Of a stretch of DNA of 64,000 nucleotides, positions 30,888 through 52,619 are shown in pieces (the first letter of the stretch is position 1; every line of letters starts with the position of its first letter). The DNA lies in assembly GCA_039029135.1 (NCBI GenBank), contig JBCCGT010000002.1, forward strand, positions 86,714-150,713, in the 5' to 3' direction. The translations under genes were made by a program, and so were the position numbers. The notes under the pieces were generated by a model, which saw nothing but the letters and a program-made list of their open reading frames with translations, was not told where the DNA came from and searched no databases. This stretch comes from Pseudomonadota bacterium. Lineage in GTDB: Bacteria > Pseudomonadota > Gammaproteobacteria > Pseudomonadales > Azotimanducaceae.

Positions 30888-30912
30888 TATGAATGAGAAT
30901 GATTATCATTTG
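30888..30912. promoter_or_regulatory. Fur box
   Basis: The core of atGAATGAGAATGATTATCATTTGt matches the Fur consensus segment AATGATAATCATTATC at 14 of 16 positions. It lies in an AT-rich island about 80 nt upstream of the 30988 gene. Confidence 0.7.
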
Positions 30913-38793: not shown

Positions 38794-38820
38794 AATGATA
38801 ATGAGAATAATTACCATTTG
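38794..38820. promoter_or_regulatory. Fur box (best match in the window)
   Basis: GATAATGAGAATAATTACC (38797-38815) matches GATAATGATAATCATTATC at 16 of 19 positions. It lies about 55 nt upstream of the receptor start. Confidence 0.8.
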
Positions 38821-38872
38821 CAGTTTCATCAGCAAAGCAACTCACAAGCGACATAACCAAGGGGAAAGGTCG

Positions 38873-41227
38873 ATGGCAACACAACACCGCCACTGGTGGG
38901 CGCTCGGCTTGGCCGCCGCCTGCACCACCGCGTGGGCACAGGACGACGGCGAACGCCTGCAGGAGACCGTCATTCAGGCGGAACCCACCATTTCAATCGC
39001 GACACGCTCGCTCGGCTCGGAAGAGCTGGTGCAGCAGATGACCGATACGATCGAAGACACGGTGCGCTACATCCCTGGCGTGCAGGTCAACGACAGCGGC
39101 AACCGCTTCAACGACAACGGCTTCAACATTCGGGGTCTGGAAGGCGACTTCGTCGCCGTGACAATCGACGGCGTCGACCAGGGCGAGACCCTGAATCCGC
39201 CTTCCTTCTCTCCCTACGGCTTCTTCGGTTCCAGTCGCGGTGCAATAGAAGTGGAGACGGTCAAGGCCATCCAGGTCACCAAAGGTCCGAACTCGGTCTC
39301 GGTTGGCAACGGCGCGCTGGCGGGCGCGGTTACCTATGTAACCAAGGACCCGAGCGACTTCCTGCAGCCCGACGGCAACGACAGCGCGATCGCCATCAAG
39401 ACCGGCTACGACAGCCGCTCCGATGAGATGATGGTCAGCGCCGCGCTCGCGAACCGCGCCGGACGCGTCGAATCGCTGTTCCAGGCGACCTATCGCGACG
39501 GCCACGAGGTCGAGGCGCACGACAGCGGCGACGACATCAACGGCAGCGCCCGCGGCCAGGCCGACCCCTTCGACCGCGAAGAGCTCGCGCTGTTGGCTAA
39601 GGTCGACTTCGCCGTGCGCGACAACCACACGCTCGGCCTGGTATGGGAAAAGGTGCAGCGCGACATCGATGGCACGCCGCTGTCGAGAGAAGAAGGACCG
39701 ACCTATTTCGACTTCATCACCGACGATCTGAATGACCGTGATCGTATCGGCATCAGCTACGACATAGACGACGCGCAGCTTGGCTTCGCCGACGAGATCG
39801 CCGCGACATTCGACTATCAGTACCTGCACACCCAAGGCATCACGACCTTTGGCTTCAACTCCGCCCGCACGATGGAGCAGTTCCTGCGCCAGGAAGATCG
39901 CGCCTTCAAACAAGAGACCTACCGCGTCGGTCTCGATCTCAGTAAAGAACTGACGCTCGGCAGTCTGGAACACGAGCTCACGTACGGTATCGAGTACGAA
40001 ACTATCGAGGTCAACAACGAGCTGTTCGATAAGCGCTACGTGGGACTGACCATGGATTCGGGTGAACGGTCCTTCAACGTCGACGGCACGTGGGTCCCGG
40101 AAACCGACATCGATCGTTTCAGCCTCTATCTGCGCGATGAAGTCCGTTTCACCGATCGCGTCAGCGGATTCGCCGGGGTTCGCGTCGACAGCACGGAGTA
40201 CTCGCCGGAGGTGGATGACCGCTTCCCTGATCCGACGGGTGACACCTTATTCGACGCGGACTTTACCGCCTGGGCCGGTGAGATCGGCCTGCGCGTCGAG
40301 GTTGCCGATGGCCACAGCATCGCGGCGTCCGTCAGCCAAGGCTACAAGGCACCGACCACGCAGGATCTGTTCCTGGACGTCGGCAGCGGTTTCGTCACTG
40401 ACATCACCACCGGCAACGAGGTGCTGGACATCGAGGAAGTCTCGAATCCGGACCTGGATCCGGAGCGTTCGACCAACTACGAGCTGTCGTACCTGTTCCA
40501 GCGCGGCCGCACGCGTATCGAGCTCACGGGCTTCTTCACGGACTACGATGAGTTCATCCAGAACGTATCGGACGCCGTGCCCTACGCTCAGCCGATCACG
40601 GTACAGGAATTCAGCTTCGCCACCTTCACCTTCGTCAATGTCACCAGGACCGAAGACGCTTTCGTAAGGGCGGAAAACGTCGGTGCGGTCGAGCTGTTTG
40701 GCTTCGAACTGGACGGCCAGTTCGCATTCAACGACCAGTGGTCGGTGCGCTTCGGCTACTCTCACGTCGAGGGCGAGCACAAGTCTTCGAGCCTCAGCCA
40801 GATCAACGGGTTCCAGGATGGCGACGATCTCGTAACAGCGTCGCCGGACTCGGCTCTGCTGTCGCTGCGCTATCAGGCACCGCAAGGTAACTGGGGCGGC
40901 TCCGCCAACTTCGTCTGGACCGACGGCGTCGATGAGTCAACGGATGCGAGCTTCACGTCGCTCAACAACGGCGAAGGTCCCGTGCACTACCCCGACTCCT
41001 GGACGACGCTGGATCTGATCGGCTTCTACCAGTTCGAGCAGCTCGGCGGTCTGCGCCTCTCCGTGGCCGTGCGCAACGTCTGGGACGAAGACTATGTGCG
41101 CTGGGAAGTGATCAACGGCGTGCGTCCCGGCAACGGCGGCTTCTTCGCCGGCGCCAGCGGCAACGGCTTCGAGCGCTTCTCCGATCCCGGACGCAGCGTC
41201 TCAGTCGACCTCAGCCTGAACTTCTGA
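38873..41227 (+). CDS. TonB-dependent outer-membrane receptor (siderophore/haem type)
   Basis: The ATG at 38873 follows GGGGAAAGG. Signal peptide ...ACTTAWAQDD. Plug motifs (TVIQAEP, NIRGLEG, IEVETVKAIQVTKGPNSV) and a terminal ...SVDLSLNF. Confidence 0.9.
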   Translation: MATQHRHWWALGLAAACTTAWAQDDGERLQETVIQAEPTISIATRSLGSEELVQQMTDTIEDTVRYIPGVQVNDSGNRFNDNGFNIRGLEGDFVAVTIDGVDQGETLNPPSFSPYGFFGSSRGAIEVETVKAIQVTKGPNSVSVGNGALAGAVTYVTKDPSDFLQPDGNDSAIAIKTGYDSRSDEMMVSAALANRAGRVESLFQATYRDGHEVEAHDSGDDINGSARGQADPFDREELALLAKVDFAVRDNHTLGLVWEKVQRDIDGTPLSREEGPTYFDFITDDLNDRDRIGISYDIDDAQLGFADEIAATFDYQYLHTQGITTFGFNSARTMEQFLRQEDRAFKQETYRVGLDLSKELTLGSLEHELTYGIEYETIEVNNELFDKRYVGLTMDSGERSFNVDGTWVPETDIDRFSLYLRDEVRFTDRVSGFAGVRVDSTEYSPEVDDRFPDPTGDTLFDADFTAWAGEIGLRVEVADGHSIAASVSQGYKAPTTQDLFLDVGSGFVTDITTGNEVLDIEEVSNPDLDPERSTNYELSYLFQRGRTRIELTGFFTDYDEFIQNVSDAVPYAQPITVQEFSFATFTFVNVTRTEDAFVRAENVGAVELFGFELDGQFAFNDQWSVRFGYSHVEGEHKSSSLSQINGFQDGDDLVTASPDSALLSLRYQAPQGNWGGSANFVWTDGVDESTDASFTSLNNGEGPVHYPDSWTTLDLIGFYQFEQLGGLRLSVAVRNVWDEDYVRWEVINGVRPGNGGFFAGASGNGFERFSDPGRSVSVDLSLNF

Positions 41228-41893
41228 CGCTCGGGCCGCGAGGCCCGACAGCTCAACTGCAACCGCGCGCACGCCGTCCGGCGAGCGCTGCGGACCCGCC
41301 CCCGGCGTCAGCACGCCGTACAGCAAAACCGGCGTCAGTACACCCGCCGCTAGCGTGACAAGCGCCTGCCGACGCCGCTGCCGATTGAACAGAACAATCC
41401 CGAACCCGGTCAGCGCAAACACCAGCATGCCGATCGCCGAGACGTCGATGAAGGCCGACCAGACGCCGCCGCTGCCGCGCCCCTTGTGCAGCGCGTTCAG
41501 CACCGCAAGCCACGAGCCGCGATCGATCTCGATGCTCAGCTCAGCCGGCGTCACCAGCACCAGCGCCTGACCCGCGATCAGATCGTATTCGAGCGAGATC
41601 TCCTCGAAGTCCTCGAACTGCTCGATGCGCTGGGGCGTGCCGAGCGTCGTGCGTCGACTGATCTCGGCCTGCAGCCGGGTGAGGTCCGGCGACCACTGCG
41701 AAGGCAGACCCAGCGCCGCCTGCAGAGGTTCGTCCAGCGGCAGGGACCAGCTCTCGGCCGCGGCGTCCTGCCCGTACCAGCCGTGGTTCAGCGCCACGCC
41801 GGTGACCGCGAAGAACGCGAGGCTGGCGAGCAGCACCGCGGAGGTATACAGGTGAATCAGCCGCAGACAGCGCAGCGCCAGTGCCCGGGTCAC
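41201..41893 (-). CDS. PepSY-associated TM-helix protein (short form)
   Basis: The GTG at 41893 overlaps the upstream stop (GTGA). Motifs LRLIHLYTSAVLLASLAFFAVTGVALNH and LHKGRGSGGVWSAFIDVSAIGMLVFALTG are typical PepSY_TM motifs. Its 3' end overlaps the convergent receptor gene by 27 nt. Confidence 0.65.
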   Translation of the reverse strand: MTRALALRCLRLIHLYTSAVLLASLAFFAVTGVALNHGWYGQDAAAESWSLPLDEPLQAALGLPSQWSPDLTRLQAEISRRTTLGTPQRIEQFEDFEEISLEYDLIAGQALVLVTPAELSIEIDRGSWLAVLNALHKGRGSGGVWSAFIDVSAIGMLVFALTGFGIVLFNRQRRRQALVTLAAGVLTPVLLYGVLTPGAGPQRSPDGVRAVAVELSGLAARASEVQAEVD

Positions 41894-43254
41894 TGTGCGG
41901 TCCGTTCGGCGCGCTGCGCGGCTACCAGGTTCGTCAGGCTATCGATCTGGCCGTCCAGGCCGTGCTCGTCGGGATAGGCGCGGCGCACGTCCCGCAGGGT
42001 CGCCAGCGCCGCCTCATAGTCGCCTCGATCGACCGCCACCTGCGCAACCCCAAGCAGGCCATTGCGACGCACCGATTCCAGCGCGCTCGCCCGTTGAAAC
42101 AGCACCGCCGCCTGCGCCAGCGCGCCGGCGGCGCGCTGGGCCTTCGCCAGCGCAATCAGCGCCTGCCCGTTTGCCGCGTCGCGCTCGAGCGCACGGCGGT
42201 AGGCCGCCGTGGCCGCCGCGGCGTCACCGCGCGCGGCGGCGAGGTCGCCGCGCACGGTCATGAGCGCGGACACCTGCACCGCCGACAGCCCGGCGCGACG
42301 CCGCCACTGCGCGTCGGCCAGCGCCTGCGCCTGACGCAGCGCATCGCGTGCCAGCAGCCAGCGGCACAGGCGGATGAGGTCCGCCGGTTCGACCTCTCCC
42401 GCGCCGACGTTCGCCTCCAGCAGCGCCGCCGCGCGGCTGTAGTTGCCGTTGCTCAGATGCAGCTGGGCCGCCGCCTGCCGATTGGCCGGCGTCGCATCTC
42501 CCAGCCGCAGTGCCGCTTCCAGCGAGGCGACCGCCCGATCGGTGTCCTGCTGCTGCAGGGCGAGGCGCGCGCGCTGCTGCCAGACGCTGACGTTGGTCGC
42601 GGCCTCGCCGAGCAGCTGATCGATCAGCGCGCTCGCCGAGCCCGCGTTGCCCGAGGCCACCAGCGCCGTCAGCAGGCCCTGCTGCCACTGCGGGTTGTCG
42701 GGCTCATGCACCAGCGCCGATTGATAGGCGCTGATCGCGCTCCAGGGATGCGCGAGCTTCAGATTCAAATAGCCGAGCTGGCCGTAGGTCTGCACGTCCG
42801 TCGCGCCCAGGCTCAGTGCCCGCGCGAGCCGATCCCGCGCGGGCCGCTCTTGACCGGTCAGCAGGTAGAGGGTGCCCAGCCCGGCGTTGGCCCGGATGGA
42901 ACCGGGCGCCGCCTCGAGCACGCGGCGGTAGACCTCGATCGCCGCATCGAAGCGACTCAGGATGGCGTGTAGCTGCGCCTCGAGCAGGTCGAGCGCCGGG
43001 CTGTGTGGCGGCGGAAACGCCTGGATGGAGGCGAGCGCGATGTCGTACTGCTCACGGCGCAACAGCGGCCGCAGCTCCTGCGACAGCTCGAACTCTTCCG
43101 CGGCGACGCGCAGATCCTCATCGAGATACAGCTCGCCTTCGGGCGCGAAGCGCCAGGCGGGCTCGCTGACCGCGACCTCAACCGCCGCGGCGCGTTCTGT
43201 CGCGAGCACGAAGAGCGTCAGGGACAGCACGAGACCGACGACGCGACTAGCCAT
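41890..43254 (-). CDS. periplasmic TPR-repeat protein (TtpD-like member of TonB2-type systems)
   Basis: Signal peptide MASRVVGLVLSLTLFVLATERAAA. Ala/Leu-rich TPR-like repeats throughout. Start at the ATG at 43254 (alternative TTG at 43269). Confidence 0.7.
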   Translation of the reverse strand: MASRVVGLVLSLTLFVLATERAAAVEVAVSEPAWRFAPEGELYLDEDLRVAAEEFELSQELRPLLRREQYDIALASIQAFPPPHSPALDLLEAQLHAILSRFDAAIEVYRRVLEAAPGSIRANAGLGTLYLLTGQERPARDRLARALSLGATDVQTYGQLGYLNLKLAHPWSAISAYQSALVHEPDNPQWQQGLLTALVASGNAGSASALIDQLLGEAATNVSVWQQRARLALQQQDTDRAVASLEAALRLGDATPANRQAAAQLHLSNGNYSRAAALLEANVGAGEVEPADLIRLCRWLLARDALRQAQALADAQWRRRAGLSAVQVSALMTVRGDLAAARGDAAAATAAYRRALERDAANGQALIALAKAQRAAGALAQAAVLFQRASALESVRRNGLLGVAQVAVDRGDYEAALATLRDVRRAYPDEHGLDGQIDSLTNLVAAQRAERTAQ

Positions 43255-43894
43255 TAGAGCGAAACTCAATGGGCCAGACGAACCGCGCCCGCACCCGCTC
43301 CCCGTCCTTCTCGGGCGGGCTGAACCGAGCCCGGGCGATGAGCGAGCGTATGCGATCTTCCATCTCGGGATACTCGTTACTCCTGATGCTGCGCAGCCGC
43401 ACGCGACCGGACTCGTCGATCAGCACGGCTAGCTCGACCTTGAAGCGATCGATACCGGCGCGCAGCATGCGGGCCGTGAACTGGATCGACAAGTCCGTCA
43501 ATAGCTGCGGCACGCCGTCCAGCTCGGCCAGCCCAAAGCCGTCGAAGTTGACGGCGAGCAGGTCGTCGAACAGCGGTGTCTCGCGTGGCTGCGCGGGCGG
43601 CTCCAGCGCCTCGAGCTTCAGTTCCGGCGCCTGGACGCGGCTGACGGGCAGCGCCAAGCGAGCGTCGCTGCTGGTCAGCAGATCGAGCGCCATGTCGGCG
43701 TTGGTTGGCGGCTCGCGGACCGCCGGCGGCGGCGGTGGCGGCGGCGCCAGCGCGCTCTCGACCTGCCGCACGACGACGCGCTCCTTGGCGACGAAGGGCG
43801 GCGTGTAAAAATAAAGCGCGAGCAGGCCGACGAGACCGGCCAGCGCCAGCGCCAGGGCGCGCAGCACCGCGAGCGCGGGCTGGGCGGCGATCAC
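43247..43894 (-). CDS. tonB: energy transducer TonB
   Basis: N-terminal TM anchor, Pro-rich spacer APPPPPPPAVREPP, and a C-terminal TonB-like domain. The GTG start overlaps the exbD stop. Confidence 0.8.
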   Translation of the reverse strand: MIAAQPALAVLRALALALAGLVGLLALYFYTPPFVAKERVVVRQVESALAPPPPPPPAVREPPTNADMALDLLTSSDARLALPVSRVQAPELKLEALEPPAQPRETPLFDDLLAVNFDGFGLAELDGVPQLLTDLSIQFTARMLRAGIDRFKVELAVLIDESGRVRLRSIRSNEYPEMEDRIRSLIARARFSPPEKDGERVRARFVWPIEFRSNG

Positions 43895-44307
43895 TGGCCG
43901 TCCTCAGCGACCGTCGCGACGTGCACGGCCTCAGCGCCCGCCAGCTTCGCCTGATCGATCACGCGCACGAGCAGCGCGGTCGGTACGACCGCATCGGCCT
44001 GCACCACCACGGGCTGGCGTCGGTTCGCCAGCAGCGGTTCGAGCGTCGCCCGCACCCCGGCAACGCCGATCCGCGTGCCGCCGTAGACCACCGCGCCGTC
44101 GGCGCCGATGCCGATCAGGAGGACGTTGCGCTCGATCTGTTGGCTGCTGAGCGCGTTCGGCTTGTCGACCTCGATGCCGGTCTCCTTGACGAACACGGTC
44201 GAGACGATAAAGAAGATCAGCAGGATGAACACCACGTCGATCAGCGGGGACAGATCGATGCGGGTCTCTTCCCGGGCCGCCAGCCGCGATTCGAGACTCT
44301 GCCTCAC
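43891..44307 (-). CDS. exbD: biopolymer transporter ExbD/TolR
   Basis: The GTG at 44307 overlaps the exbB stop (GTGA). IDLSPLIDVVFILLIFFIV is the canonical ExbD TM segment. Confidence 0.85.
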   Translation of the reverse strand: MRQSLESRLAAREETRIDLSPLIDVVFILLIFFIVSTVFVKETGIEVDKPNALSSQQIERNVLLIGIGADGAVVYGGTRIGVAGVRATLEPLLANRRQPVVVQADAVVPTALLVRVIDQAKLAGAEAVHVATVAEDGQ

Positions 44308-44681
44308 GCCGCGGCCTCCCGACGTACCGCGCCGCCGAGCAGCGCGAGCAGCACCCAGCCAGGGATCGCGGTGAGCAGGCCGATCTGCGTGGTGACCAGC
44401 GCATCGGCGATGCCGCCGCTGACCAACAGCGATGGGTCGAACCCGCGTTCGATGCTCATCTGCCGAAACGTCGACAGCAGACCAACGATGGTGCCAAGCA
44501 GCCCAAGCAGCGGCAGCACGCTGACCAGCACGCGCAGCGTGGGCAGCACGTTCTGCGTGCGCTGCAGCCAGTCCGCATCGCGACGCTCGAGCAGCAGGTA
44601 GGCGGCCCACGCGAAGGCGGCCAGCGCGGTGCCGAGGATCGCCCAGCAGACCGGATTGCTCAGCGTCGCCCACTTATCCAC
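44304..44681 (-). CDS. exbB: MotA/TolQ/ExbB proton-channel protein (short ExbB)
   Basis: 125 aa. LLGLLGTIVGLLSTF...GGIADALVTTQIGLLTAIP is the ExbB signature. Confidence 0.8.
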   Translation of the reverse strand: MDKWATLSNPVCWAILGTALAAFAWAAYLLLERRDADWLQRTQNVLPTLRVLVSVLPLLGLLGTIVGLLSTFRQMSIERGFDPSLLVSGGIADALVTTQIGLLTAIPGWVLLALLGGAVRREAAA

Positions 44682-45966
44682 GGCGGGCGACCATGTCGAT
44701 ATCGGTTAGCGTAACCGCCGTTTGCTCCAGAGCGCCGGTGTGCGCGCTGGCCCGGCGGCTCAGCAGCGCGTGCAGCACCAGCGCGGGAATAGCGACGATG
44801 AGTCCCAGTTCCGTCGTCACGAGCGCCTCGGAGATGCCGCCCGAGACGACGCTGGGATCGTTGCCGCCGAACAGCGTCATCATGGAAAACGTATTGATCA
44901 TGCCGGACACCGTACCGAGTAGACCCAGGAGCGGCGCCACCGTGGCCGTGACGGCGATGGCGCCGAGAAACCGCTCGAGCCGCTCGCGCTCCGCCACCAG
45001 CGCGCCAAACAGGCGGTCGTCGCGCTGCTCCACCGTGGGCGCTGCGCGCACGATCTCGACGATCTCGGCGCCGATCGGCGGCAGATCCCCCAACCAGCGC
45101 TGCATGGCCGGCTGCTGCCAGGGATCGGCGTCGCCGCTGACGCGCGGCGGCGTCACGATGCGCGGCAGGCGCAGGAACTGCCAGGCCTTGCCCAGCGTGA
45201 TCAGCACGGCGAGACAGGCGAAGCCGAGAATCGGCAGCACCCAGATCCCGCCCTGACGCAGATGGTCGACGATGCCCTGACGCTGACCGCGCGCCGCCAG
45301 GACGCGCCGAATCGTGGGGTCGAGCTGCACGCTCGCGACGCCGTCCCGGCGCAGGGCGCGTAGCGCGTCGAGGTCGCCGCCGCTGAACGGCAGCGCGGCG
45401 AGCGGCAGATCGCCCTCGCGCTCCAGCAGCAGCCCGCCGCCCTCGGCGTCCAGGTACCAGGCGATCGGACCGAGACGCAGCCGCTCGCCGTCCGTGAGCT
45501 GGCCGTCGTCGCGCACGTAGCTCGCGCGCGCGAACGATGGCGCCAGCGCGGTCTCGAACCGGTCGATCGCGTTCGCCAGCACCTCCTGCGCCGGCTGGTC
45601 GACCGCGTCGGAATCGAACTCGCGCAGCAGGTTGGCCTGATACGCCGCCTGAGCGCGCCAGCTACGCACCCGCGTTTCGAGCTGGCCGATGCTGAGCGTC
45701 CGCTCATCGGCCGCACGCCGAGCGGCGGCGGCGGACGCCCGCAGGCGCAGCACGTCCGCATTGACCGCGTTGACCCGCTGCGCCTGGGCGGCCGCCGCGC
45801 GGCCGATATCGCGGGTTTCCCGATCGAGCGCTCGCTGAGACTTGGCGATGTCGTCGCGCAGGCCGGCTAGCAGCGCCGCGTCGCCGTGAGCCCCGCTCGC
45901 GCTCGCTATGAGGAGTGCGGCCAGCAGCCACCGCTCAGACGCTCGCAGCGCTCTCGCGGCCGTCAC
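44674..45966 (-). CDS. large MotA/TolQ/ExbB-family protein with a periplasmic N-terminal domain (TtpC-like)
   Basis: The GTG at 45966 overlaps the DUF3450 gene stop (GTGA). Signal-like WLLAALLIASASGAHG and a coiled-coil region. The C-terminus PLLGLLGTVSGMINTF...GGISEALVTTELGLIVAIPA is ExbB-like. Confidence 0.75.
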   Translation of the reverse strand: MTAARALRASERWLLAALLIASASGAHGDAALLAGLRDDIAKSQRALDRETRDIGRAAAAQAQRVNAVNADVLRLRASAAAARRAADERTLSIGQLETRVRSWRAQAAYQANLLREFDSDAVDQPAQEVLANAIDRFETALAPSFARASYVRDDGQLTDGERLRLGPIAWYLDAEGGGLLLEREGDLPLAALPFSGGDLDALRALRRDGVASVQLDPTIRRVLAARGQRQGIVDHLRQGGIWVLPILGFACLAVLITLGKAWQFLRLPRIVTPPRVSGDADPWQQPAMQRWLGDLPPIGAEIVEIVRAAPTVEQRDDRLFGALVAERERLERFLGAIAVTATVAPLLGLLGTVSGMINTFSMMTLFGGNDPSVVSGGISEALVTTELGLIVAIPALVLHALLSRRASAHTGALEQTAVTLTDIDMVARRG

Positions 45967-46748
45967 GGCGCGACGATCTCGGTCGACACGGGCAGGGCCA
46001 GAAGCTCCAGCCGGCCGCGGCTGCGCTGAGCGTCGACCAGACGTCGCACGGCCGCTGGCGACGCGCCAGCCGGGTCGCCCCAGCGCCAGCCCTCCTGCGT
46101 CGAGTGGCCCACGCCGGCTAGGGTATCGCCGCGGCTGACGTAGTAGCCGTGGCTGAGGCCGATGAAGACCTGCTGCACCTCGACGGTGGCCACGCCAATG
46201 GGCATCTGGGTCTCGTGCAGCGCGATTCGCTGATCGAACTCCGCGAGCGCGTCCAACAGCGCCAGGACGCTGCGCAGCTCGCCGCTGGTGTCGGCCGCGG
46301 CCGCGGCGTTGTCGAGTTCGGCCTGGCAGAGGGCCCGCAGCGGCGGCGGCAGGCGCGGCAGCAGGGCCTCGAGCCGCTTCACGACCGGCGGCAGCGCCGC
46401 CGTCAGCACAGCCGCGTCTGCCTCCAGCGACTCCTGTTCCGCCAGCAGTTCGCCGCGGCGCGCGGACACGTCGTCCTCGACGGCCGCGCGCTGCTCGATC
46501 AGGCGCTCCAGATCGGCCTTCTCGCGTTCCAGCAGCGCCTGCTGTCGTTCGCCCGCGACGCGGCGCTCGCGCCAGTCGGCGTCGAGCTCGCTGCGCTGGC
46601 GCTCGATCGCGCTCCAGCGCCCCACCAGCGCGTCGACCTCGGCGCCGATGCCCGCACCGGGCGCCACGGCGGGTACGCACAGCATCAGGAGACCAAGCGT
46701 CGCCGCACGAGCACGCGTGAACCGGGGAATCAGGCGGGAAGTTGTCAT
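45963..46748 (-). CDS. DUF3450 family protein (TtpB-like first gene of the TonB2-type operon)
   Basis: ATG at 46748 (alternative at 46763). Signal peptide TLGLLMLCVPAVAPGAG. A long coiled-coil is followed by FIGLSHGYYVS, typical of DUF3450. Confidence 0.65.
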   Translation of the reverse strand: MTTSRLIPRFTRARAATLGLLMLCVPAVAPGAGIGAEVDALVGRWSAIERQRSELDADWRERRVAGERQQALLEREKADLERLIEQRAAVEDDVSARRGELLAEQESLEADAAVLTAALPPVVKRLEALLPRLPPPLRALCQAELDNAAAAADTSGELRSVLALLDALAEFDQRIALHETQMPIGVATVEVQQVFIGLSHGYYVSRGDTLAGVGHSTQEGWRWGDPAGASPAAVRRLVDAQRSRGRLELLALPVSTEIVAP

Positions 46749-46902
46749 ATTCAAATTGCGCATCCAGACTGTTTTCTGCGGGCTTTTGCGGGACAAGCTG
46801 CCGCCCGACGAGGCGTCCGACCGCGTCGCTGTCGCAGCTTGCACGCGTCGCTGTCGGGACCGCTGCCGGACGCCTCGGTCCAGCCGTCAGCCTCTCTCAA
46901 AC

Positions 46903-46925
46903 GGCAATGATTCTCGTTTGTATTT
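46903..46925. promoter_or_regulatory. Fur box in the divergent TonB2-operon / EF-hand gene region
   Basis: GGCAATGATTCTCGTTTGTATTT shares the motif AATGAWTCTCGTTT with the box at 56184. Confidence 0.55.
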
Positions 46926-46976
46926 AAACCGCCGGCTGACGATAATCCAAGTGATCGGGACAACGGAGACGAATCG

Positions 46977-47960
46977 ATGTTGGGAGTGAACAACACCAAG
47001 ACCAGCCGGCGCGCTGGGCACCTGACGACGGCCATCTGCGCGCTGTGCTGCACGGCCGGCGCGGTGGCAGGCGATCAGGACGATTTCTGGAGCGATTCCT
47101 ATCGCGAGGTCCGGCGGGTCCAGTTCATCGATCGCTATGACCGCGACGCGGACGGCCGCGTCAGCTCCATTGAATTCGAGCAGGCGCGCCGCGACCGCTT
47201 CGACATCACCGACGAGGACGCAAGCGGCACCGTGTCGCGTGAGGAATACGTCTATGAGTGGGAAGACCGGCTCGACGCGCAGATGATCAAGGACCGAGCG
47301 TCGGAGGTGAAACAGACGCAGGTGCGCTTCGGCGCGCTGGACCGCAACGACGACGAGCGCATGACGTGGCGCGAGTATCAGGCCTCCGGCAAGCGCATGT
47401 TCAAGGCCCACGACGGCAACCGGGACGGCAAGATCGACGCCGAGGAGCCGAATCGCCCGCGCGAACGGGCCCGCACGGCGCGCAAGATCGATCCCGAGCA
47501 GATGAAGGCCTGGCAGCTCGCCCGCGTCAATCGCATGCTGCGCATGCCGAGCACGCACCGCCGCTCGGGCGTGATGGTGCGCTACGACACCGACGGCGAT
47601 GAGCTCGTCACGCGCAAGGAATTCAACGCCCAGCGGCGCAGCGACTTCGACCGTACCGACGCCGACGGCAACGGCTGGCTGAGCGCCGACGAGTACCTCG
47701 CCGAATACGAGGACCGGCTCGACGCCGAGATCGAAATCCAGCGCCGCGAATCGGTCGAGCAGGCAGGTCGACGCTTCGCTGCCCTCGACGATGACGAGGA
47801 CGCCGCCATGACCTTCGCGGAGTATCAGGATTCGGGGCACAGCATGTTCGCGCGCCACGACGCCTCCGGCGACGGCTACGTGACGACCAGCGATCCGCTG
47901 CCGGCGCCGCCGACCCAGGTCGCCGCGGTCACGACGACGAACGACGCGCAGCAGAACTAG
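46977..47960 (+). CDS. secreted multi-EF-hand calcium-binding protein
   Basis: GGAG 8 nt upstream of the start; signal peptide. At least eight DxDxDG-type loops: DRDADGRVSSIEF, DEDASGTVSREEY, DRNDDERMTWREY, DGNRDGKIDAEE, DTDGDELVTRKEF, DADGNGWLSADEY, DDDEDAAMTFAEY, DASGDGYVTTSD. Confidence 0.8.
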   Translation: MLGVNNTKTSRRAGHLTTAICALCCTAGAVAGDQDDFWSDSYREVRRVQFIDRYDRDADGRVSSIEFEQARRDRFDITDEDASGTVSREEYVYEWEDRLDAQMIKDRASEVKQTQVRFGALDRNDDERMTWREYQASGKRMFKAHDGNRDGKIDAEEPNRPRERARTARKIDPEQMKAWQLARVNRMLRMPSTHRRSGVMVRYDTDGDELVTRKEFNAQRRSDFDRTDADGNGWLSADEYLAEYEDRLDAEIEIQRRESVEQAGRRFAALDDDEDAAMTFAEYQDSGHSMFARHDASGDGYVTTSDPLPAPPTQVAAVTTTNDAQQN

Positions 47961-47964
47961 TCGC

Positions 47965-49503
47965 TTGCGCGCGCTCCCCCGCCCGGCGGATCGCGCCGCC
48001 CGCGTCCTGACGCTCGCTCTCACGCTGCTGCTGCTGGGCGCCGCGCCCGCGCGCGGCGCGCCAGGCGAACAAGGCGAGCAAGGCGCGCTCGTCACCGAAC
48101 GGCTGACCGCGAACGGCGTGCTCGGCAGCCAGCTCACCATGGCGGTCACGGGCGCCGACAGCGTGCGCGCGCGACAGGCCATGAACGCGGCGGTCGAAGA
48201 GATCAAGCGGCTTGAGGCGCTGCTATCGAGCTATCGGGACGACAGCGAGCTGAGCCGCCTGAACGCGAGCGGCGAGGTCGAGTCGGCATCCAACGATCTG
48301 CGCGCCGTGCTGGCGCTGTGCCAGCAGTACGCGGCCCGCCTGGACAATCACTTCAGCTGCGCGCTCGGCGCTCTCCGGCAGCGCTGGCAGACGGCCGAGG
48401 CGAACGCAGAGCTGCCCGACCGCATCGAGCAGCGCCGGCTGGCGCGCGAGACGCGCGGCGCCGCGATCGACCTGAGCAACGGCGGCGCGCGCATCGAAGC
48501 GCCCATCAAGCTCGACGTCGACGGCCTGGCGAAGGGCTACATCATCGACGCCGCGTTCGCGACGCTTGAGGCGCGCTATCCGACCGCAGCCGGCGCGTTC
48601 GTCAATATCGGCGGCGACGGCCGCTACGGCGGCGTGCGGGCGGACGGCCAGACCTGGCGGGTTGCGCTGCAGGGCGCCGACGCGCCGGGTACGCTGCAGC
48701 TGCCGGCGAGCGGCGCGGCCATCGCCGCGAGCGGCTCGAGCAGCCGCAGCTACACAGTCGGTCGCCGGACCTTCAGTCAGGTGCTCGCACCCCGCGACGG
48801 CTGGCCCGTCCATCAGCCGCCGCACACCTACGTCATGGCGCCCACCGCCGCGCTGGCGGACGCGATCGCGACCGGGCTTATGGTGATGCCGCCCGCGCGC
48901 AGCCTGGACTGGCTCGGCCAGCAGAGCGACGTCGAAGCGCTGCTGGTGCTGGTCGACGGCTACCAGCTGACGACCCCGCGGTTCAGATCCGCGCTCGTCG
49001 CCGCCGACGCTGCGCCGCCGGCACAGGGCTTCAGGCTCAGCTATGAGGTACCCGATATCGACGCGGGCGACTACCGGCGACCCTACATCGCGGTGTGGAT
49101 CACCGGCGCCGATCGACGCGTGGTGACGCAGCTGTTGCTGCGCGGCGACGCGGAGCGCTGGGCGCGCGAGAACACGCGCTGGTGGTCGGCCATCGGTCGC
49201 AGCAACACGGCGCTGTTCGACGCCATCGCCAGACCGACGCAGCGTCCGGGCGCGTATCAGGTCCACTGGGACGGCCACGACAGTCGCGGCACGCCGGTTG
49301 GCGACGAGCGGCTGATCCTGCACGTCGAGGCGGCGCGGGAATATGGCGACCACGACTACGTTCGGCTGCCGCTCGATCCGATGGGCGAGGCCATCGAGTT
49401 TCCGGGCAAGGGCGAGATCGGCCCGCTACGCCTCGAGTGGACCGCGACGCGCAGCCCCGCCATGGCGGCCGCGAGCGCGAATCGCAGCAGCGCCCCGCCG
49501 TAG
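47965..49503 (+). CDS. apbE: ApbE-type FAD:protein FMN transferase fused to a C-terminal DUF2271 domain
   Basis: TTG start; signal peptide. The ApbE pattern (LSRLN..., DVDGLAKGYIID, AIAASGSSSRSY) fills the first 350 aa or so. The C-terminal PYIAVWITGADRRVVTQLLLRGD...RWW...WDGHDSRGTPV resembles DUF2271. Confidence 0.7.
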   Translation: MRALPRPADRAARVLTLALTLLLLGAAPARGAPGEQGEQGALVTERLTANGVLGSQLTMAVTGADSVRARQAMNAAVEEIKRLEALLSSYRDDSELSRLNASGEVESASNDLRAVLALCQQYAARLDNHFSCALGALRQRWQTAEANAELPDRIEQRRLARETRGAAIDLSNGGARIEAPIKLDVDGLAKGYIIDAAFATLEARYPTAAGAFVNIGGDGRYGGVRADGQTWRVALQGADAPGTLQLPASGAAIAASGSSSRSYTVGRRTFSQVLAPRDGWPVHQPPHTYVMAPTAALADAIATGLMVMPPARSLDWLGQQSDVEALLVLVDGYQLTTPRFRSALVAADAAPPAQGFRLSYEVPDIDAGDYRRPYIAVWITGADRRVVTQLLLRGDAERWARENTRWWSAIGRSNTALFDAIARPTQRPGAYQVHWDGHDSRGTPVGDERLILHVEAAREYGDHDYVRLPLDPMGEAIEFPGKGEIGPLRLEWTATRSPAMAAASANRSSAPP

Positions 49504-49804
49504 CTTCGGCGTTCGTTGGGCGCGGCGATCCCGCCTCCGCCGTTCGACTGCGAACCTCACGCGGCGTTTACTCAAGGCGCCCTACCCTGTATTTCGACAC
49601 GGTCTGTTGCGCGGCGGCGTGTCGGCGTCGGGCGCCGGCTGATCCGCGACCATCCGAACGAGCCGTCGACGGGCTGCTACAGTTGCTTCGCGACGTCGGC
49701 GCGAGGAACAGCAGGTCGAACGCAAGATCCCGCGCGACAGGCGCACGAGGGAGAGAAGCGCGCGCCTGAGCGCACCAGAGGCTGGTGTTCGCGGCGCGAC
49801 TGAT

Positions 49805-52468
49805 TTGCCCAGGGCTGACGGAAGAACGGTGCCAGCAAGCTCAGCAGCACGACGAACGACGACTCCCGCCGCCAGCAAGGTGCTCTGCCTGCTGCTCTGC
49901 GCGACGTTTGGCGGCGGAGCGCGCGGCGAGAGTCAGGCCGCGCCGGCAGCATCCGATCCGGCAGCAGCGAACGCTGAGCGTGCCGAAGAAGAGCTGATCG
50001 AGGTCGTCGCGCAGCGACTGCGCTTCGGCGCGGGGGGCGCCATCGACCCGGAACAGTCGTTCGACCGCGACACGATTAGGGCGCTGGGCGTGAGCAGCCT
50101 CGACGAGCTGATCAGCGAGCTGGCGCCCGAGCTGCGCAGCGGCCGGGGGCGGAGCTCCGGTCCCCCGGTTGTGCTGGTCAACGGCCAGCGCATCGGCAGC
50201 TTTAACGAGGTCCGGCGCTATCCGCCGGAGGCCGTAGAGCGAGTCGAAATCTATCCGGAGGACGTTGCACTGCGCTTCGGGTTCCGACCGGAGCAGAAGG
50301 TCATCAACTTCGTGTTGCAGCCTCGCTTCCGCGCGGCGCCCGTCGCCACCAAGATCGCCGCCGCCAGCGACGGGGGCGCGGAGACAGCCGCGCTGGAGGC
50401 GGGCTATCTGCGCCTGCGCGATCGGCGCCGCCTGAACCTGACCGCACGTGTGTCCCGAGACCGACCGCTGCACGACTCTGACCGCAGCGTCGCGGTCCCG
50501 ACCGATCGGCCGGCGGGGCTGACAGGCAATCTGTTCCCGGCCGGCGAGCGCGCCGAGCTTGATCCCGCGCTCTCGGCACTCGCGGGCGAGCCGGTGTTCA
50601 GCGCCGCGATCCCGGTCCCGGCGCTAGCCCTCTCCGACTTCGCGGCTACCGCCAATCAAACCGCGACGACCTCGCAGGCAAGCGCCAGAACGCTGGTGCC
50701 CAAAAGCCGCGAAGCGCGGTTGACGGCCAGCCTCGCCCATCCGGTGGGCGAGCGGCGCTCGGCGAGCTGGTCCGCCGAGGTGTGGCAGTCGAGGTCCCGG
50801 GCAGAGCTCGGCCTTGCAGGCCTCACGATCGACGTGCCAAACGACCATCCGCGCTCGCCGTTCGCCGGCGTCGTCACCGCGGAGCGCCTGCTGCCCGAAA
50901 CGCTGCTGCGCGAAACGCAGAGCCGGCGCGTCAGCCTCAGCGCGACGCTCGCCGGCCAGCGCGCCGGCTGGAACTGGCTGGGGACGGCACGTTTCGACGA
51001 TCTGGAGCGGGACACCGAAACCGGGACGGGCGTCGACGCCGCCGCATTCGAGGCTGCGGTTAACGCGGGCGACGCGTCGATCGATCCCTTCGGCCCGCCC
51101 GCGTCGTTCACCATCGAGCCGCTGCGCGACCGCACCCGCCAGACCCAGTCGGCGCTCGAGCTGCAGACCAACGGCACTGCGTTCGGCGAGCGCCTGTCCA
51201 CGACCATCGCCGCCAGTCTGCGGCGCGACGAGATCGACAGCGTCACCGAGAGCCGGCTGGCGAGCGCGGCCGTGCAGCTCGAGCGCAACGGCGCGGCGCT
51301 CACGACCAGTTTTGACCTGTCGCTGTTCGAGGGCGCGCGACTGGGCAGCCTGTCGCTGAACGCCAATACCGGGCTGACCGGGTTGAGCGACTTCGACGCT
51401 CTACACCGACTCGGCGCGGGACTGGTCTGGCGGCCGAACTCGGCGCTGCGCGTCGTCGCGTCCTGGAGCAGCGAGGAGGACGCACCGACGCTGCCGCAGC
51501 TCGGAGACGCGATCAGCCGGAGCCCGAATCGACGCGTGTACGACTTCGCGAACGGCGCCGCGACGAACGCGATCCAGATCACCGGCGGCAACCCGAACCT
51601 GCGCGCGGCCGAGCGCCGGTTGGCGAGCGTCGCGCTGCGCTTGGAGCCGTTCGATGCGCACGATTTGTCGCTGTCGCTAAATCTGCTGCGACGCCGCACA
51701 CGGGATCCGGTCGTGACGCTGACTAATCCGAATGCAGAGGTCGAGGCTGCGTTTCCCGAGCGCTTTACGCGGGACGCGGCAGGAACACTCCTGAGCTTTG
51801 ACAGCCGCCCCATCAATCTGCATGCGAGCCGGCGCAGCGAGTTCGGCTGGACGCTGCGCTTCAGCCGCGCCGTGCGCTCGGAGGCCGCCGGTCCGACGCG
51901 CGGCCGCCCAGGCAGAGGGGGCCAGGCGTCGGCGCCGCGCCGCGGCGAGCGCCCGTTCGGCGGCGGCTGGCGAGGCTTCGGCTCGGGCCGCGGGCGCCTT
52001 GGCTTCTCGCTCGGTCACCGCGTGACCCTGCGGGACGACGCGAGATTCGGCCGCGATCTGCCGCTGCTGGATTTCGTCGGTCACACGGGCGCGGGGCGGG
52101 CGGACGGCGCGGAGCACGAGGTCAATCTGCGCGCGTTCTACGCCTATCGCTCGTGGAGCGGAAGACTGCAGTCGAGCTGGCAGAGCGCGACGACCACGCT
52201 GCCCGATCCGCTCGCCCCTCAGCTGAAGCGCGCCCCGCTGCTGCGCGTTGATCTCAGCGCGGCCTACACGGTATTGCCCCGCAGCCGGCTGGCACAGCGC
52301 TGGCCGCTGCTGGGTGGCACGCGCATTCGGCTGAGCGTCGACAATCTGTTCAACGCCCGACCGCAGGTGCGGGACGAGTTCAATCAGACGCCGCCGGGCA
52401 GTTCCAGGGCAGAACTCGATCCGCTCGGCCGATATTTCGGCCTGGAACTCCGCAGCGTGCTTCGTTAG
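49805..52468 (+). CDS. TonB-dependent-receptor-like outer-membrane protein with an Arg/Gly-rich insert (start uncertain)
   Basis: Plug-like region: IEVVAQR...SLDELISELAPEL...VVLVNGQRIGSFNEVRRYPPEAVERVEIYPEDVALRFGF. A long beta-rich remainder follows. The C-terminus is GRYFGLELRSVLR rather than a terminal Phe. Alternative starts: GTG at 49829 or 49880. Confidence 0.65.
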   Translation: MPRADGRTVPASSAARRTTTPAASKVLCLLLCATFGGGARGESQAAPAASDPAAANAERAEEELIEVVAQRLRFGAGGAIDPEQSFDRDTIRALGVSSLDELISELAPELRSGRGRSSGPPVVLVNGQRIGSFNEVRRYPPEAVERVEIYPEDVALRFGFRPEQKVINFVLQPRFRAAPVATKIAAASDGGAETAALEAGYLRLRDRRRLNLTARVSRDRPLHDSDRSVAVPTDRPAGLTGNLFPAGERAELDPALSALAGEPVFSAAIPVPALALSDFAATANQTATTSQASARTLVPKSREARLTASLAHPVGERRSASWSAEVWQSRSRAELGLAGLTIDVPNDHPRSPFAGVVTAERLLPETLLRETQSRRVSLSATLAGQRAGWNWLGTARFDDLERDTETGTGVDAAAFEAAVNAGDASIDPFGPPASFTIEPLRDRTRQTQSALELQTNGTAFGERLSTTIAASLRRDEIDSVTESRLASAAVQLERNGAALTTSFDLSLFEGARLGSLSLNANTGLTGLSDFDALHRLGAGLVWRPNSALRVVASWSSEEDAPTLPQLGDAISRSPNRRVYDFANGAATNAIQITGGNPNLRAAERRLASVALRLEPFDAHDLSLSLNLLRRRTRDPVVTLTNPNAEVEAAFPERFTRDAAGTLLSFDSRPINLHASRRSEFGWTLRFSRAVRSEAAGPTRGRPGRGGQASAPRRGERPFGGGWRGFGSGRGRLGFSLGHRVTLRDDARFGRDLPLLDFVGHTGAGRADGAEHEVNLRAFYAYRSWSGRLQSSWQSATTTLPDPLAPQLKRAPLLRVDLSAAYTVLPRSRLAQRWPLLGGTRIRLSVDNLFNARPQVRDEFNQTPPGSSRAELDPLGRYFGLELRSVLR

Positions 52469-52619
52469 TTGGACGCCTCGCGCAACCAACGCAAGTGAAC
52501 GCCGCGACGGTGCGCCGGGGCACAGCAGACTTGCACAGCAGACTTGGACACCCACGCTCGGCGTCAGCCCTTTCGAGGAACGGCTTGGTAAACTTCTGAC
52601 GCCAAAGGGAGGAAGCGCC

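What the first reader, a model, noticed from the sequence alone, without database searches (positions are those of the whole stretch)
46977..52468. EF-hand protein, ApbE-DUF2271 fusion and atypical outer-membrane receptor: candidate extracytoplasmic flavin-based iron-reduction/uptake unit
Three exported proteins are transcribed divergently from the TonB2 operon, from the region holding the Fur box. The first is a protein of eight EF-hands. The second fuses an ApbE flavin transferase to a DUF2271 domain; in other genomes ApbE, DUF2271 and PepSY-like membrane proteins occur as separate genes in clusters proposed to reduce extracytoplasmic iron. The third is an 887-aa TonB-dependent-receptor-like protein. 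The matching PepSY_TM partner lies just across the TonB2 operon (41201-41893). I have not seen described either the enzyme-plus-substrate-domain fusion or the association with a Ca-binding EF-hand protein.
Basis: inference. Interest (0 to 1): 0.6.

Follow-up and report, generated by a model that had tools for sequence, protein, structure and literature searches.

The report
Iron-regulated periplasmic flavin reductase module
This is a real, widely conserved iron-starvation gene set (calcium-type binding protein, a flavin-attaching enzyme fused to its own target domain, a membrane cytochrome and a TonB motor) of an already proposed kind; its eight-EF-hand partner and its altered flavin-attachment site appear undescribed.

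Summary
The first protein has eight EF-hand loops. The second is an ApbE–DUF2271 fusion (Pfam 7.7e-48 and 5.4e-28). The third folds as a TonB-dependent receptor. A PepSY_TM_like_2 gene ends the divergent TonB2 operon.

The iron-reduction reading matches the published PepSY-like flavinylation systems. The fusion itself is not new: it was reported in 2020 and 2021, and it is induced by iron limitation in Alteromonas.

- **EF-hand partner:** the eight-EF-hand gene sits next to the fusion in 39 of 79 non-redundant fusion loci, and in 3 of 3 contexts reached from the EF-hand side. I found no paper that discusses this.
- **Attachment site:** 78 of 79 fusions, including this one (DAIARPT), replace the canonical [S/T]GA[S/T] flavinylation site with x-R/K-P/A-T. 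The acceptor Thr/Ser is always kept. Stand-alone DUF2271 proteins keep [S/T]GAT.
- **Receptor:** the 887-aa receptor is not the module's conserved receptor. It is absent from 20 related genomes and belongs to an unrelated divergent family. The true ortholog is a PhuR-like receptor at 38873–41227, behind the window's strongest Fur box.

No experiment on this locus was possible. I rate it a new variant of a known kind.

The parts
38797..38821 (.). Strong Fur box pair upstream of the PhuR-like receptor gene (GATAATGAGAATAATTACC, overlapping GAGAATAATTACCATTTGC).
   Evidence: Matches 16/19 and 14/19 of the Fur consensus. The 16/19 match is the best in the 64-kb window.
38873..41227 (+). PhuR/TbpA-like TonB-dependent receptor. 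It is the ortholog of the receptor that follows the fusion gene in other genomes. The likely start is the ATG at 38873; the ORF as listed opens at 38795.
   Evidence: Pfam Plug 1.7e-17 and barrel 1.5e-49. It matches PhuR (8THE) at 5e-52 over its full length. It is the best hit in this genome for all 25 'slot' receptors tested, at 52-56% identity to the closest ones.
41201..41893 (-). PepSY_TM_like_2 membrane protein, the last gene of the TonB2 operon. It is the presumed haem-b electron conduit.
   Evidence: PF16357 at 4.1e-35. His14, His37 and His136 are invariant or nearly so in 41 partners of the fusion. It holds the same operon position in L012, L013, L015, L034 and L079.
41890..43269 (-). 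TPR protein (TtpD-like) of the TonB2 operon.
   Evidence: TPR_19 at 1.2e-22.
43247..43894 (-). TonB.
   Evidence: TonB_C at 5.7e-5, just under the Pfam cut-off. Its position in the operon is conserved.
43891..44307 (-). ExbD.
   Evidence: PF02472 at 2.5e-27.
44304..44681 (-). Short ExbB.
   Evidence: PF01618 at 6.3e-18.
44674..45966 (-). Large MotA/ExbB-family protein (TtpC-like).
   Evidence: PF01618 at 2.4e-27.
45963..46748 (-). DUF3450 protein (TtpB-like), the first gene of the TonB2 operon.
   Evidence: PF11932 at 4.2e-21.
46903..46921 (.). Fur-like palindrome in the divergent promoter region, 56 nt upstream of the EF-hand gene.
   Evidence: Matches 12/19 of the consensus, and by my own reading 15/19 of this genome's own strong box at 30895. 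The equivalent palindrome is present upstream of the orthologous operons.
46977..47960 (+). Exported protein with 2 x 4 EF-hands, belonging to a dedicated family.
47965..49503 (+). ApbE::DUF2271 fusion. It starts 4 nt after the EF-hand stop codon.
48778..48780 (+). Gln272 codon, at the position of the ApbE general-base histidine (His257 in V. cholerae numbering).
   Evidence: Alignment to solved ApbE structures. Across 80 aligned sequences the position holds 58 His, 11 Gln and 11 other residues. The role of this histidine is taken from PMC12052999.
49219..49239 (+). D419-A-I-A-R-P-T425, the non-canonical counterpart of the D-x-x-[S/T]-G-A-[S/T] flavinylation site. Thr425 is the presumed FMN acceptor.
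   Evidence: The stand-alone DUF2271 of the same genome carries VDAVTGAT.
49805..52468 (+). Sequence-divergent TonB-dependent receptor. It occupies the receptor slot of the module but is not orthologous to it, and is probably a recent acquisition.

Best explanation
The region 38.8-49.5 kb is one Fur-controlled iron-acquisition unit of the PepSY-like flavinylation class. The steps below are inferred unless marked otherwise.

1. **Import.** A PhuR/TbpA-like outer-membrane receptor (38873-41227) imports an iron source. This could be haem, or weakly bound or protein-bound Fe(III). Import is powered by the adjacent TonB2 motor.
2. **Electron supply.** The last gene of the motor operon encodes a small PepSY_TM_like_2 cytochrome-type protein with three conserved histidines. 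It carries electrons from the membrane or cytoplasm to the periplasm.
3. **Electron acceptor.** The acceptor is the DUF2271 domain of the exported ApbE::DUF2271 protein. Its own ApbE domain loads it with FMN on Thr425. Because the substrate is tethered, the usual recognition residues Gly and Ala have been replaced by Arg and Pro.
4. **Reduction.** The flavin then reduces periplasmic Fe(III) or ferric haem, so that the iron can be taken up as Fe(II).
5. **EF-hand protein.** The eight-EF-hand protein is co-translated just upstream. It is a dedicated periplasmic metal-binding partner of this sub-type. It is most likely Ca2+-loaded and structural or scaffolding. Less likely, it holds the incoming hard cation.
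6. **The 887-aa receptor.** It is a later insertion into the receptor slot, and its substrate is unknown.

**Shown here:** domain content, gene order, conservation, and the sequence of the attachment site.
**Inferred:** flavinylation, the direction of electron flow, the substrate, and iron regulation in this organism.
For: - **Domains:**
- **Module conservation:** [DUF4198]-EF-ApbE::DUF2271-TBDR recurs in Parahaliea, Stenotrophomonas, Psychrobium, Colwellia, Pseudoalteromonas, Paraglaciecola, Gilvimarinus and others. It lies divergent from a TonB2 operon in many of them.
- **PepSY link:** PepSY_TM_like_2 lies within 10 kb of 52 of 79 fusions. In the SAR86/Pseudohongiella type, PepSY plus the fusion is the whole unit.
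- **Only DUF2271 in many genomes:** the fused DUF2271 is the only DUF2271 in 17 of 30 genomes tested, including all 7 minimal PepSY+fusion genomes. It must therefore be the working redox partner there.
- **Attachment site and active site:** the acceptor Thr/Ser is kept in 79 of 79 fusions. The ApbE Ser and Asp positions and the AKG, GGD and ADAxAT motifs are also kept.
- **Fur-type palindromes:** found upstream of the orthologous operons and at 38797 and 46903 in this window.
- **Published experiments on homologs:**
  - Caulobacter CC_2193 (EF hand/DUF4198) is induced 65- to 168-fold in low iron or in a fur mutant, beside the receptor CC_2194. CC_3059-3063 (PepSY/DUF2271/DUF4198/ApbE) is also Fur-regulated (PMC3751524).
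  - Caulobacter PepSY-locus mutants lose fitness in EDTA (PMC12004947).
  - The Alteromonas ApbE-DUF2271 fusion MASE_18630 is induced by iron limitation (PMC7190382).
  - A stand-alone DUF2271 is flavinylated by its ApbE (PMC8238504).
Against: - The canonical [S/T]GA[S/T] site is missing. Published single substitutions at the Gly or the Ala already halve flavinylation (PMC12052999), and Arg-Pro is a much larger change. Flavinylation of the fused domain is therefore unproven.
- In this protein the ApbE general-base His is Gln272.
- The Fur box at 46903 is only 12/19.
- This locus has no DUF4198 gene.
- No inner-membrane Fe(II) importer lies in the unit.
- Nothing shows what the EF-hand protein binds.
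- The receptor type (PhuR-like) points to haem or protein-bound iron, not to a classical siderophore.
Confidence: 0.6

Rival explanations
1. This is a haem-uptake accessory system. The module's conserved receptor is a PhuR/HutA-type haem receptor. On this reading, the EF-hand protein, DUF4198 where present, and the flavoprotein handle haem in the periplasm (reducing ferric haem, or reductively releasing the iron), not free or siderophore-bound Fe(III).
For: - The slot receptor of Parahaliea matches PhuR (8THE) at 6e-75 over its full length. The window's ortholog matches at 5e-52.
- In Caulobacter the EF-hand/DUF4198 genes sit beside CC_2194, which the authors annotate as a hemin receptor (PMC3751524).
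Against: - The same receptors also resemble TbpA, which imports bare Fe(III).
- The window receptor has no FRAP box, only NPDL.
- I found no haem oxygenase or haem ABC transporter in the unit.
- The PepSY/DUF2271 class is linked in the literature to ferric reduction (PMC8238504, PMC12004947).
Confidence: 0.2
2. The fused DUF2271 domain is not a flavin carrier. It is a degenerate docking domain. The ApbE domain works in trans on the canonical stand-alone DUF2271 encoded elsewhere (contig C12 in this genome), or it acts as a periplasmic FAD pyrophosphatase or flavin-trafficking enzyme.
For: - 78 of 79 fusions lack [S/T]GA[S/T].
- This genome has a PepSY2-DUF2271(TGAT)-DUF4198 triad with no ApbE beside it.
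- The same complementarity (a triad without ApbE, plus an EF-fusion locus without PepSY) is seen in Parahaliea, Neptunicella, Aliiglaciecola, Paraglaciecola and Pseudoalteromonas.
- In Colwellia and two Pseudoalteromonas genomes the two loci are only 6 kb apart.
Against: - In 17 of 30 genomes the fused domain is the only DUF2271, with a PepSY gene next door.
- The acceptor Thr/Ser is universally conserved, which would be unexpected for a dead site.
- This genome has two further ApbE genes that could serve the stand-alone protein.
- The two readings are not exclusive: cis and trans activity could coexist.
Confidence: 0.15
3. This is a lanthanide or other non-iron metal system. The EF-hand protein would be a lanmodulin-like binder that works with a TonB-dependent receptor.
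For: - The best structural match per target length is lanmodulin (8FNS and 8DQ2, TM 0.57-0.62, against about 0.29 for calmodulin).
- Paired loops are 12 residues apart, as in LanM (my reading; the LanM spacing is from my own knowledge).
Against: - The NCBIfam LanM score is 51 bits against a cut-off of 135.
- No loop has Pro at position 2.
- The operators are Fur-type, and the homologs are iron-regulated (PMC3751524).
- I found no XoxF or lanthanide-utilisation genes in the unit.
Confidence: 0.03

Closest known systems
PepSY-like flavinylation systems (PepSY_TM/PepSY_TM_like_2 + ApbE + DUF2271 ± DUF4198), Meheust et al. 2021, eLife (PMC8238504); Caulobacter CCNA_03155-03159
   Same: It has the same three core Pfam families. 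It is extracytosolic. It has Fur-type operators. It is associated with TonB components. The proposed role is periplasmic ferric reduction.
   Different: - ApbE and DUF2271 are one polypeptide.
- The flavinylation site reads A-R-P-T instead of [S/T]-G-A-[S/T].
- The PepSY gene is the last gene of the divergent TonB2 operon.
- The locus has no DUF4198 gene.
- An eight-EF-hand gene precedes the fusion.
Alteromonas macleodii MASE_18630 (COG1477 + DUF2271) with MASE_18640 (DUF4198), beside an iron-responsive TonB-dependent transporter (Manck et al. 2020, PMC7190382)
   Same: It has the same fusion architecture and the same neighbourhood type. Induction by iron limitation was shown experimentally.
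   Different: The authors do not discuss an EF-hand gene or the attachment site. I did not retrieve the Alteromonas locus itself.
Caulobacter crescentus CC_2193 (CCNA_02274 EF-hand protein / CCNA_02275 DUF4198) beside CC_2194, a TonB-dependent receptor annotated as a hemin receptor
   Same: An EF-hand protein, a PhuR-like receptor class and strong Fur/iron regulation occur together (PMC3751524, PMC10715135).
   Different: The alphaproteobacterial EF-hand proteins found beside fusions in this study are single four-hand halves of 157-188 aa. In C. crescentus the ApbE/DUF2271/PepSY genes are at a separate locus and are not fused.
Lanmodulin (LanM; PDB 8FNS, 8DQ2)
   Same: It is a compact four-EF-hand unit with short spacing between paired loops, and it is a periplasmic metal binder genetically linked to a TonB-dependent receptor.
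   Different: - The EF-hand protein here has no Pro at loop position 2.
- It scores below the family cut-off.
- It has eight loops in two halves.
- It carries family-specific EYVxEWEDRLD motifs and an invariant His in the MPSTH linker.
- Its regulation is iron-linked, not lanthanide-linked.
Vibrio TonB2 system (TtpB, TtpC, ExbB2, ExbD2, TonB2, TtpD)
   Same: The gene order and the families are the same. The Vibrio gene names and order are from my own knowledge.
   Different: A PepSY_TM_like_2 gene is appended to the operon.

Membership tests
PepSY-like flavinylation system (Meheust 2021) | Extracytosolic ApbE | tested here: met
   PF02424 at 7.7e-48 on residues 66-327. It aligns to solved ApbE structures 5MGY and 4XGW. 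The signal-like N-terminus was judged by eye only.
PepSY-like flavinylation system (Meheust 2021) | DUF2271 substrate domain | tested here: met
   PF10029 at 5.4e-28, 97.8 bits against a cut-off of 27.3.
PepSY-like flavinylation system (Meheust 2021) | Conserved [S/T]GA[S/T] flavinylation motif in DUF2271 | tested here: not met
   The site reads DAIARPT. Of 79 fusions, 78 carry x-[RKQHM]-[PAS]-[TS] and only L089 carries SGAT. Stand-alone DUF2271 proteins carry [ST]GAT, with SGPT or TGPT in two of them.
PepSY-like flavinylation system (Meheust 2021) | PepSY-like membrane protein in the cluster | tested here: met
   PF16357 at 4.1e-35 at 41201-41893. It has three conserved His. Its placement is conserved in five relatives.
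PepSY-like flavinylation system (Meheust 2021) | Covalent FMN on the substrate domain | not testable with these tools
   This needs protein expression with UV-fluorescence gels or mass spectrometry.
PepSY-like flavinylation system (Meheust 2021) | Iron/Fur regulation | tested here: inconclusive
   The Fur-like box at 46903 matches 12/19, and a strong box at 38797 matches 16/19. The palindrome is conserved in orthologous loci. Experimental regulation is known only for homologs (PMC3751524, PMC7190382).
ApbE FAD:protein FMN transferase | Ser241-His257-Asp285 catalytic positions (V. cholerae numbering; PMC12052999) | tested here: not met
   The Ser and Asp positions are present, but the His position is Gln272. 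Across 80 aligned sequences the position holds 58 His and 11 Gln. A published H257G mutant keeps reduced activity, so this does not prove the enzyme is inactive.
ApbE FAD:protein FMN transferase | Conserved AKG, GGD and ADAxAT motifs | tested here: met
   K190, G191, G216, G217, D218, A298, D299, A302 and T303 are invariant in the family alignment. Their role in FAD/Mg binding is from my own knowledge.
TonB-dependent receptor (the 887-aa protein) | Plug domain inside a beta-barrel | tested here: met
   The AlphaFold2 model (pLDDT 80.5) matches PirA, Cir, FepA, PhuR and BtuB at Foldseek E 1e-19 to 1e-22. The Pfam barrel scores 33.3 bits, above its cut-off. The Plug scores 19 bits, below its cut-off.
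TonB-dependent receptor (the 887-aa protein) | Orthology with the receptor that follows the fusion gene in other genomes | tested here: not met
   phmmer finds none of the slot receptors. It is absent from 20 related genomes. Three other family members lie in unrelated contexts.
Lanmodulin | Family score and Pro at EF-loop position 2 | tested here: not met
   NF053806 scores 51 bits against a cut-off of 135. None of the eight loops has Pro at position 2.
PhuR/HutA-type haem receptor (38873-41227) | Full-length similarity to a characterised haem receptor, plus haem-receptor motifs | tested here: inconclusive
   It matches 8THE (PhuR) at 5e-52 over its full length, but it also matches the TbpA plug region. 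It has NPDL but no FRAP.
TonB2-type energiser operon | DUF3450, large MotA/ExbB, ExbB, ExbD, TonB and TPR genes in that order | tested here: met
   The same order is seen in L001, L002, L125 and L126.

The most novel reading that the evidence does not exclude
The eight-EF-hand protein is not a calcium protein in function. It would be the periplasmic acceptor of a hard metal cation (Fe3+) delivered by a TbpA/PhuR-like receptor, and it would hand that cation to a self-flavinylating ApbE::DUF2271 reductase. The tethered substrate site x-R-P-T would be a second, previously unrecognised ApbE recognition sequence. Together these would define a siderophore-independent, reductive route for iron uptake across the periplasm that is widespread in marine Gammaproteobacteria.
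Probability: 0.15. Interest if true: 0.75.

Novelty: new variant of a known kind. Interest (0 to 1): 0.45.

Why it matters
PepSY-like flavinylation systems are among the most common uncharacterised iron-starvation genes in Gram-negative bacteria. They matter for marine iron cycling.

- **Attachment site:** this sub-family offers a natural enzyme-substrate fusion whose attachment site departs from the motif used to predict flavinylated proteins and to engineer flavin tags. If Thr425 is flavinylated, motif-based searches for ApbE substrates miss a whole class.
- **EF-hand partner:** the conserved eight-EF-hand partner gives a concrete, testable candidate for the missing periplasmic metal-handling step. 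It also raises the question of why a calcium-type protein belongs to an iron regulon.
- **Receptor assignment:** identifying the correct receptor prevents the wrong protein from being studied.

Tried and rejected
- A profile-based locus search with the 29-sequence alignment failed, because no stretch was conserved enough. It worked with a 10-sequence alignment.
- My first iterative HMM script timed out and was simplified. The DUF4198 and ApbE HMMs built that way pick up antisense high-GC ORFs and stand-alone DUF2271 proteins. I ignored those labels and classified by length and strand.
- I searched the text-held supplements of Meheust 2021 for EF-hand Pfam codes and for RUL87804, and found nothing.
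- No sigma-70 promoter or convincing terminator was found between 46.6 and 52.7 kb. Whether the 887-aa gene is co-transcribed across the 300-bp gap therefore stays open, and no Fur-like box was seen in that gap.
- The contexts of the two other ApbE genes of this genome gave no clear Nqr/Rnf link, so I could not say which ApbE serves the stand-alone DUF2271.
- Look-ups of earlier findings by sequence returned nothing.
- The lanmodulin reading was considered and rejected.
- A pseudogene reading of the 887-aa ORF was rejected, because the model folds confidently and its C-terminus matches that of its closest relatives.
- Both structure-prediction jobs went to the EF-hand protein and the 887-aa receptor. 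The tool also returns no coordinates. Docking of Thr425 into the ApbE site could therefore not be examined.

Full report
**Observation**

- **EF-hand protein.** The 327-aa product of 46977-47960 matches the Pfam EF-hand families. It has exactly eight canonical 12-residue loops in two homologous halves. An AlphaFold2 model built on 26 relatives (pLDDT 87.9) shows eight helix-loop-helix units.
- **Fusion protein.** The 512-aa product of 47965-49503 starts 4 nt after the EF-hand stop codon. It carries ApbE on residues 66-327 (7.7e-48) and DUF2271 on residues 358-486 (5.4e-28).
- **Third protein.** The 887-aa product of 49805-52468 scores poorly in Pfam. It nevertheless folds with pLDDT 80.5 into a plug-and-barrel structure that matches solved TonB-dependent receptors at Foldseek E about 1e-22.
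- **Minus-strand operon.** It is a TonB2-type operon: DUF3450, a large MotA/ExbB protein, ExbB, ExbD, TonB and a TPR protein. It ends with a PepSY_TM_like_2 gene at 41201-41893 (4e-35).
- **Fur site.** The site in the divergent promoter region (46903-46921) matches only 12/19 of the consensus.

**What is already known**

- Meheust et al. 2021 (PMC8238504) describe 3220 PepSY-like clusters with ApbE, DUF2271 and often DUF4198.
  - They show that a stand-alone DUF2271 is flavinylated at a [S/T]GA[S/T] site.
  - They state that some genomes encode ApbE and DUF2271 in a single gene.
  - They argue for a role in iron reduction and assimilation.
- Manck et al. 2020 (PMC7190382) had already noted an ApbE(COG1477)-DUF2271 protein in Alteromonas macleodii. 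It is induced by iron limitation and lies beside a DUF4198 gene and an iron-responsive receptor.
- In Caulobacter, the PepSY/DUF2271/DUF4198/ApbE locus and an 'EF hand protein/DUF4198' gene pair beside a TonB-dependent receptor annotated as a hemin receptor are among the most strongly Fur-repressed genes (PMC3751524). PepSY-locus mutants lose fitness under EDTA (PMC12004947).
- The fusion, and the iron-reduction idea, are therefore not new.

**The module is conserved, EF-hand gene included**

- **Spread of the fusion.**
  - It forms about 70 protein clusters in the large protein database.
  - A scan of one genome per species found relatives in 323 stretches.
- **Neighbours of the fusion.** Of 79 non-redundant fusions:
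  - 39 have an EF-hand gene of this family next door;
  - 52 have a PepSY_TM_like_2 gene within 10 kb.
- **Architectures.** They fall into types.
  - **Window type:** a divergent TonB2 operon, then [DUF4198]-EF-fusion-receptor. The PepSY gene lies at the end of the TonB2 operon (L012, L013, L015, L034, L079), immediately upstream, or downstream.
  - **Minimal type:** only a PepSY-fusion pair, in SAR86 and Pseudohongiella.
  - **Alphaproteobacterial and planctomycete types:** fusion followed by PepSY, sometimes with a four-hand EF protein, DUF4198 and a receptor.
- **From the EF-hand side.** Three arbitrarily chosen family members (Gilvimarinus, Planctobacterium and a 'Pseudomonas sp.' record) all lie in DUF4198-EF-fusion-receptor units.
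- **Size and conservation of the EF-hand family.**
  - It has about 120 clusters at 90% identity and 38 representatives at E below 1e-30.
  - Seven of the eight loops are conserved across the family.
  - It also carries family-specific EYVxEWEDRLD motifs and an invariant His in an MPSTH linker.
- **Literature check.** No paper in the library holds both 'EF-hand' and 'DUF4198'.

**The attachment site is systematically altered**

- **Site in the fusions.** In the window the site reads D-A-I-A-R-P-T425.
  - Of the 79 fusions, 78 carry x-[R/K/Q/H/M]-[P/A/S]-[T/S]. The commonest forms are ARPT (22) and TRPT (20).
  - Only one, from a planctomycete, keeps SGAT.
- **Site in stand-alone proteins.** Stand-alone DUF2271 proteins carry [S/T]GAT. 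This includes the one on contig C12 of this genome.
- **Acceptor residue.** The acceptor Thr/Ser is never lost.
- **Fused domain as sole DUF2271.** In 17 of 30 genomes the fused domain is the only DUF2271. These include all seven minimal PepSY-fusion genomes. The fused domain must therefore be the working partner of the PepSY protein there.
- **My inference.** The fused domain is flavinylated in cis, and tethering has relaxed or changed the recognition sequence. This is not shown.
- **Cautions.**
  - Published Gly-to-Ala or Ala-to-Val changes already halve flavinylation (PMC12052999).
  - In the window's protein the proposed general-base His is Gln272. Across 80 aligned sequences this position holds 58 His and 11 Gln.
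- **Neighbours.** No neighbouring protein carries a canonical site.

**Possible two-locus arrangement**

- This genome also has a PepSY2-DUF2271(TGAT)-DUF4198 triad, followed by a ZnuABC-type transporter, with no ApbE beside it.
- The same complementarity occurs in Parahaliea and several Alteromonadales. A triad without ApbE sits in one place, and an EF-fusion locus without PepSY sits in another.
- In Colwellia and Pseudoalteromonas the two loci are 6 kb apart.
- The fused ApbE may therefore also act in trans.

**The receptor**

- **The 887-aa protein is not the module's receptor.**
  - It finds none of the receptors that occupy the same slot in other genomes.
  - It belongs to a divergent family of about 70 clusters, found in Brevundimonas, Caulobacter and sphingomonads. 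Three sampled members lie in unrelated contexts.
  - One member lies 3.9 kb from a fusion gene in Phenylobacterium.
  - It is absent from all 20 nearest genomes, including four of the same genus.
- **The slot receptor of other genomes.** It resembles PhuR, the Pseudomonas haem receptor (6e-75), and TbpA.
- **Its ortholog in this genome.**
  - For all 25 slot receptors tested, the best hit in this genome is the gene at 38795-41227, with 52-56% identity to the closest ones.
  - That gene is itself PhuR-like (5e-52).
  - It lies behind the best Fur box of the window (16/19).
  - It ends convergently against the PepSY gene.
- **Extent of the unit.** The functional unit therefore spans 38.8-49.5 kb. 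The receptor sits on the far side of the TonB2 operon.
- **Origin.**
  - The EF-fusion pair is also absent from the 20 nearest genomes.
  - The block from 41 to 52 kb has 5-7 points more G+C than the genome average.
  - Both observations are compatible with horizontal acquisition.

**Regulation**

A CAAATGA-N3-TCATTTG palindrome lies 5-90 nt upstream of the first + strand gene in most orthologous loci, at frequencies well below chance. The window's site is a slightly degenerate copy.

**EF-hand protein**

- Fold search returns only generic EF-hand proteins. The best match per target length is lanmodulin (TM 0.57-0.62).
- Paired loops are 12 residues apart, as in lanmodulin.
- The protein has no Pro at loop position 2 and scores far below the LanM cut-off. 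I do not file it as lanmodulin.
- Several orthologs begin their mature chain with runs of His, which hints at handling of transition metals.

**Verdict**

- The third gene is mis-assigned.
- Three things appear undescribed: the conserved eight-EF-hand partner, the non-canonical acceptor site of the fused domains, and the two-locus complementarity.
- All functional statements about this organism are inference.

Noticed in passing
G000 contig C12:141741-143740 (L009:7741-9740): A second, canonical PepSY_TM_like_2 - DUF2271 (VDAVTGAT) - DUF4198 triad lies in the same genome. A ZnuA/ABC/ABC-3 transporter follows it, and no ApbE gene is adjacent. It could be served in trans by the fused ApbE of the window.
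   Followed up: partly
EF-hand orthologs P0166, P0167, P0169, P0172, P0187 (alignment A3): Several close orthologs begin their predicted mature chain with runs of 2-4 histidines (for example AAAHHH and SAHHHH). The window's protein lacks such a run. An invariant His sits in the MPSTH linker between the two halves (His194 in the window).
   Followed up: no
window 49805-52468: The divergent receptor is unique to this genome among 20 relatives. It has a disordered Arg/Gly-rich insert at residues 692-728. It ends in ...RSVLR; its closest relatives end in ...RKLFR, whereas more distant members end in F or Y.
   Followed up: partly
window 41201-41227: The 3' ends of the PhuR-like receptor gene (+ strand) and the PepSY gene (- strand) overlap convergently by 27 nt.
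   Followed up: no
L127:1-7007: In one record (labelled Pseudomonas sp. CGJS7) the DUF4198-EF-fusion-receptor unit directly follows genes typical of salicylate/pyochelin-type siderophore synthesis: isochorismate synthase, a CM_2 lyase, an AMP-binding enzyme, a thioesterase and an Irp3-like reductase.
   Followed up: no
L021, L028, L042 (Colwellia, Pseudoalteromonas): The canonical PepSY2-DUF2271(TGAT)-DUF4198 triad and the EF-fusion-receptor unit lie on the same strand, about 6 kb apart. This looks like an intermediate between the one-locus and two-locus arrangements.
   Followed up: no
window 41000-52500: G+C is 70.6-72.6% for the TonB2/PepSY block, the fusion gene and the 887-aa gene, and 67.2% for the EF-hand gene. 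The genome average is 65.1%, and the PhuR-like receptor gene is at 62%.
   Followed up: partly
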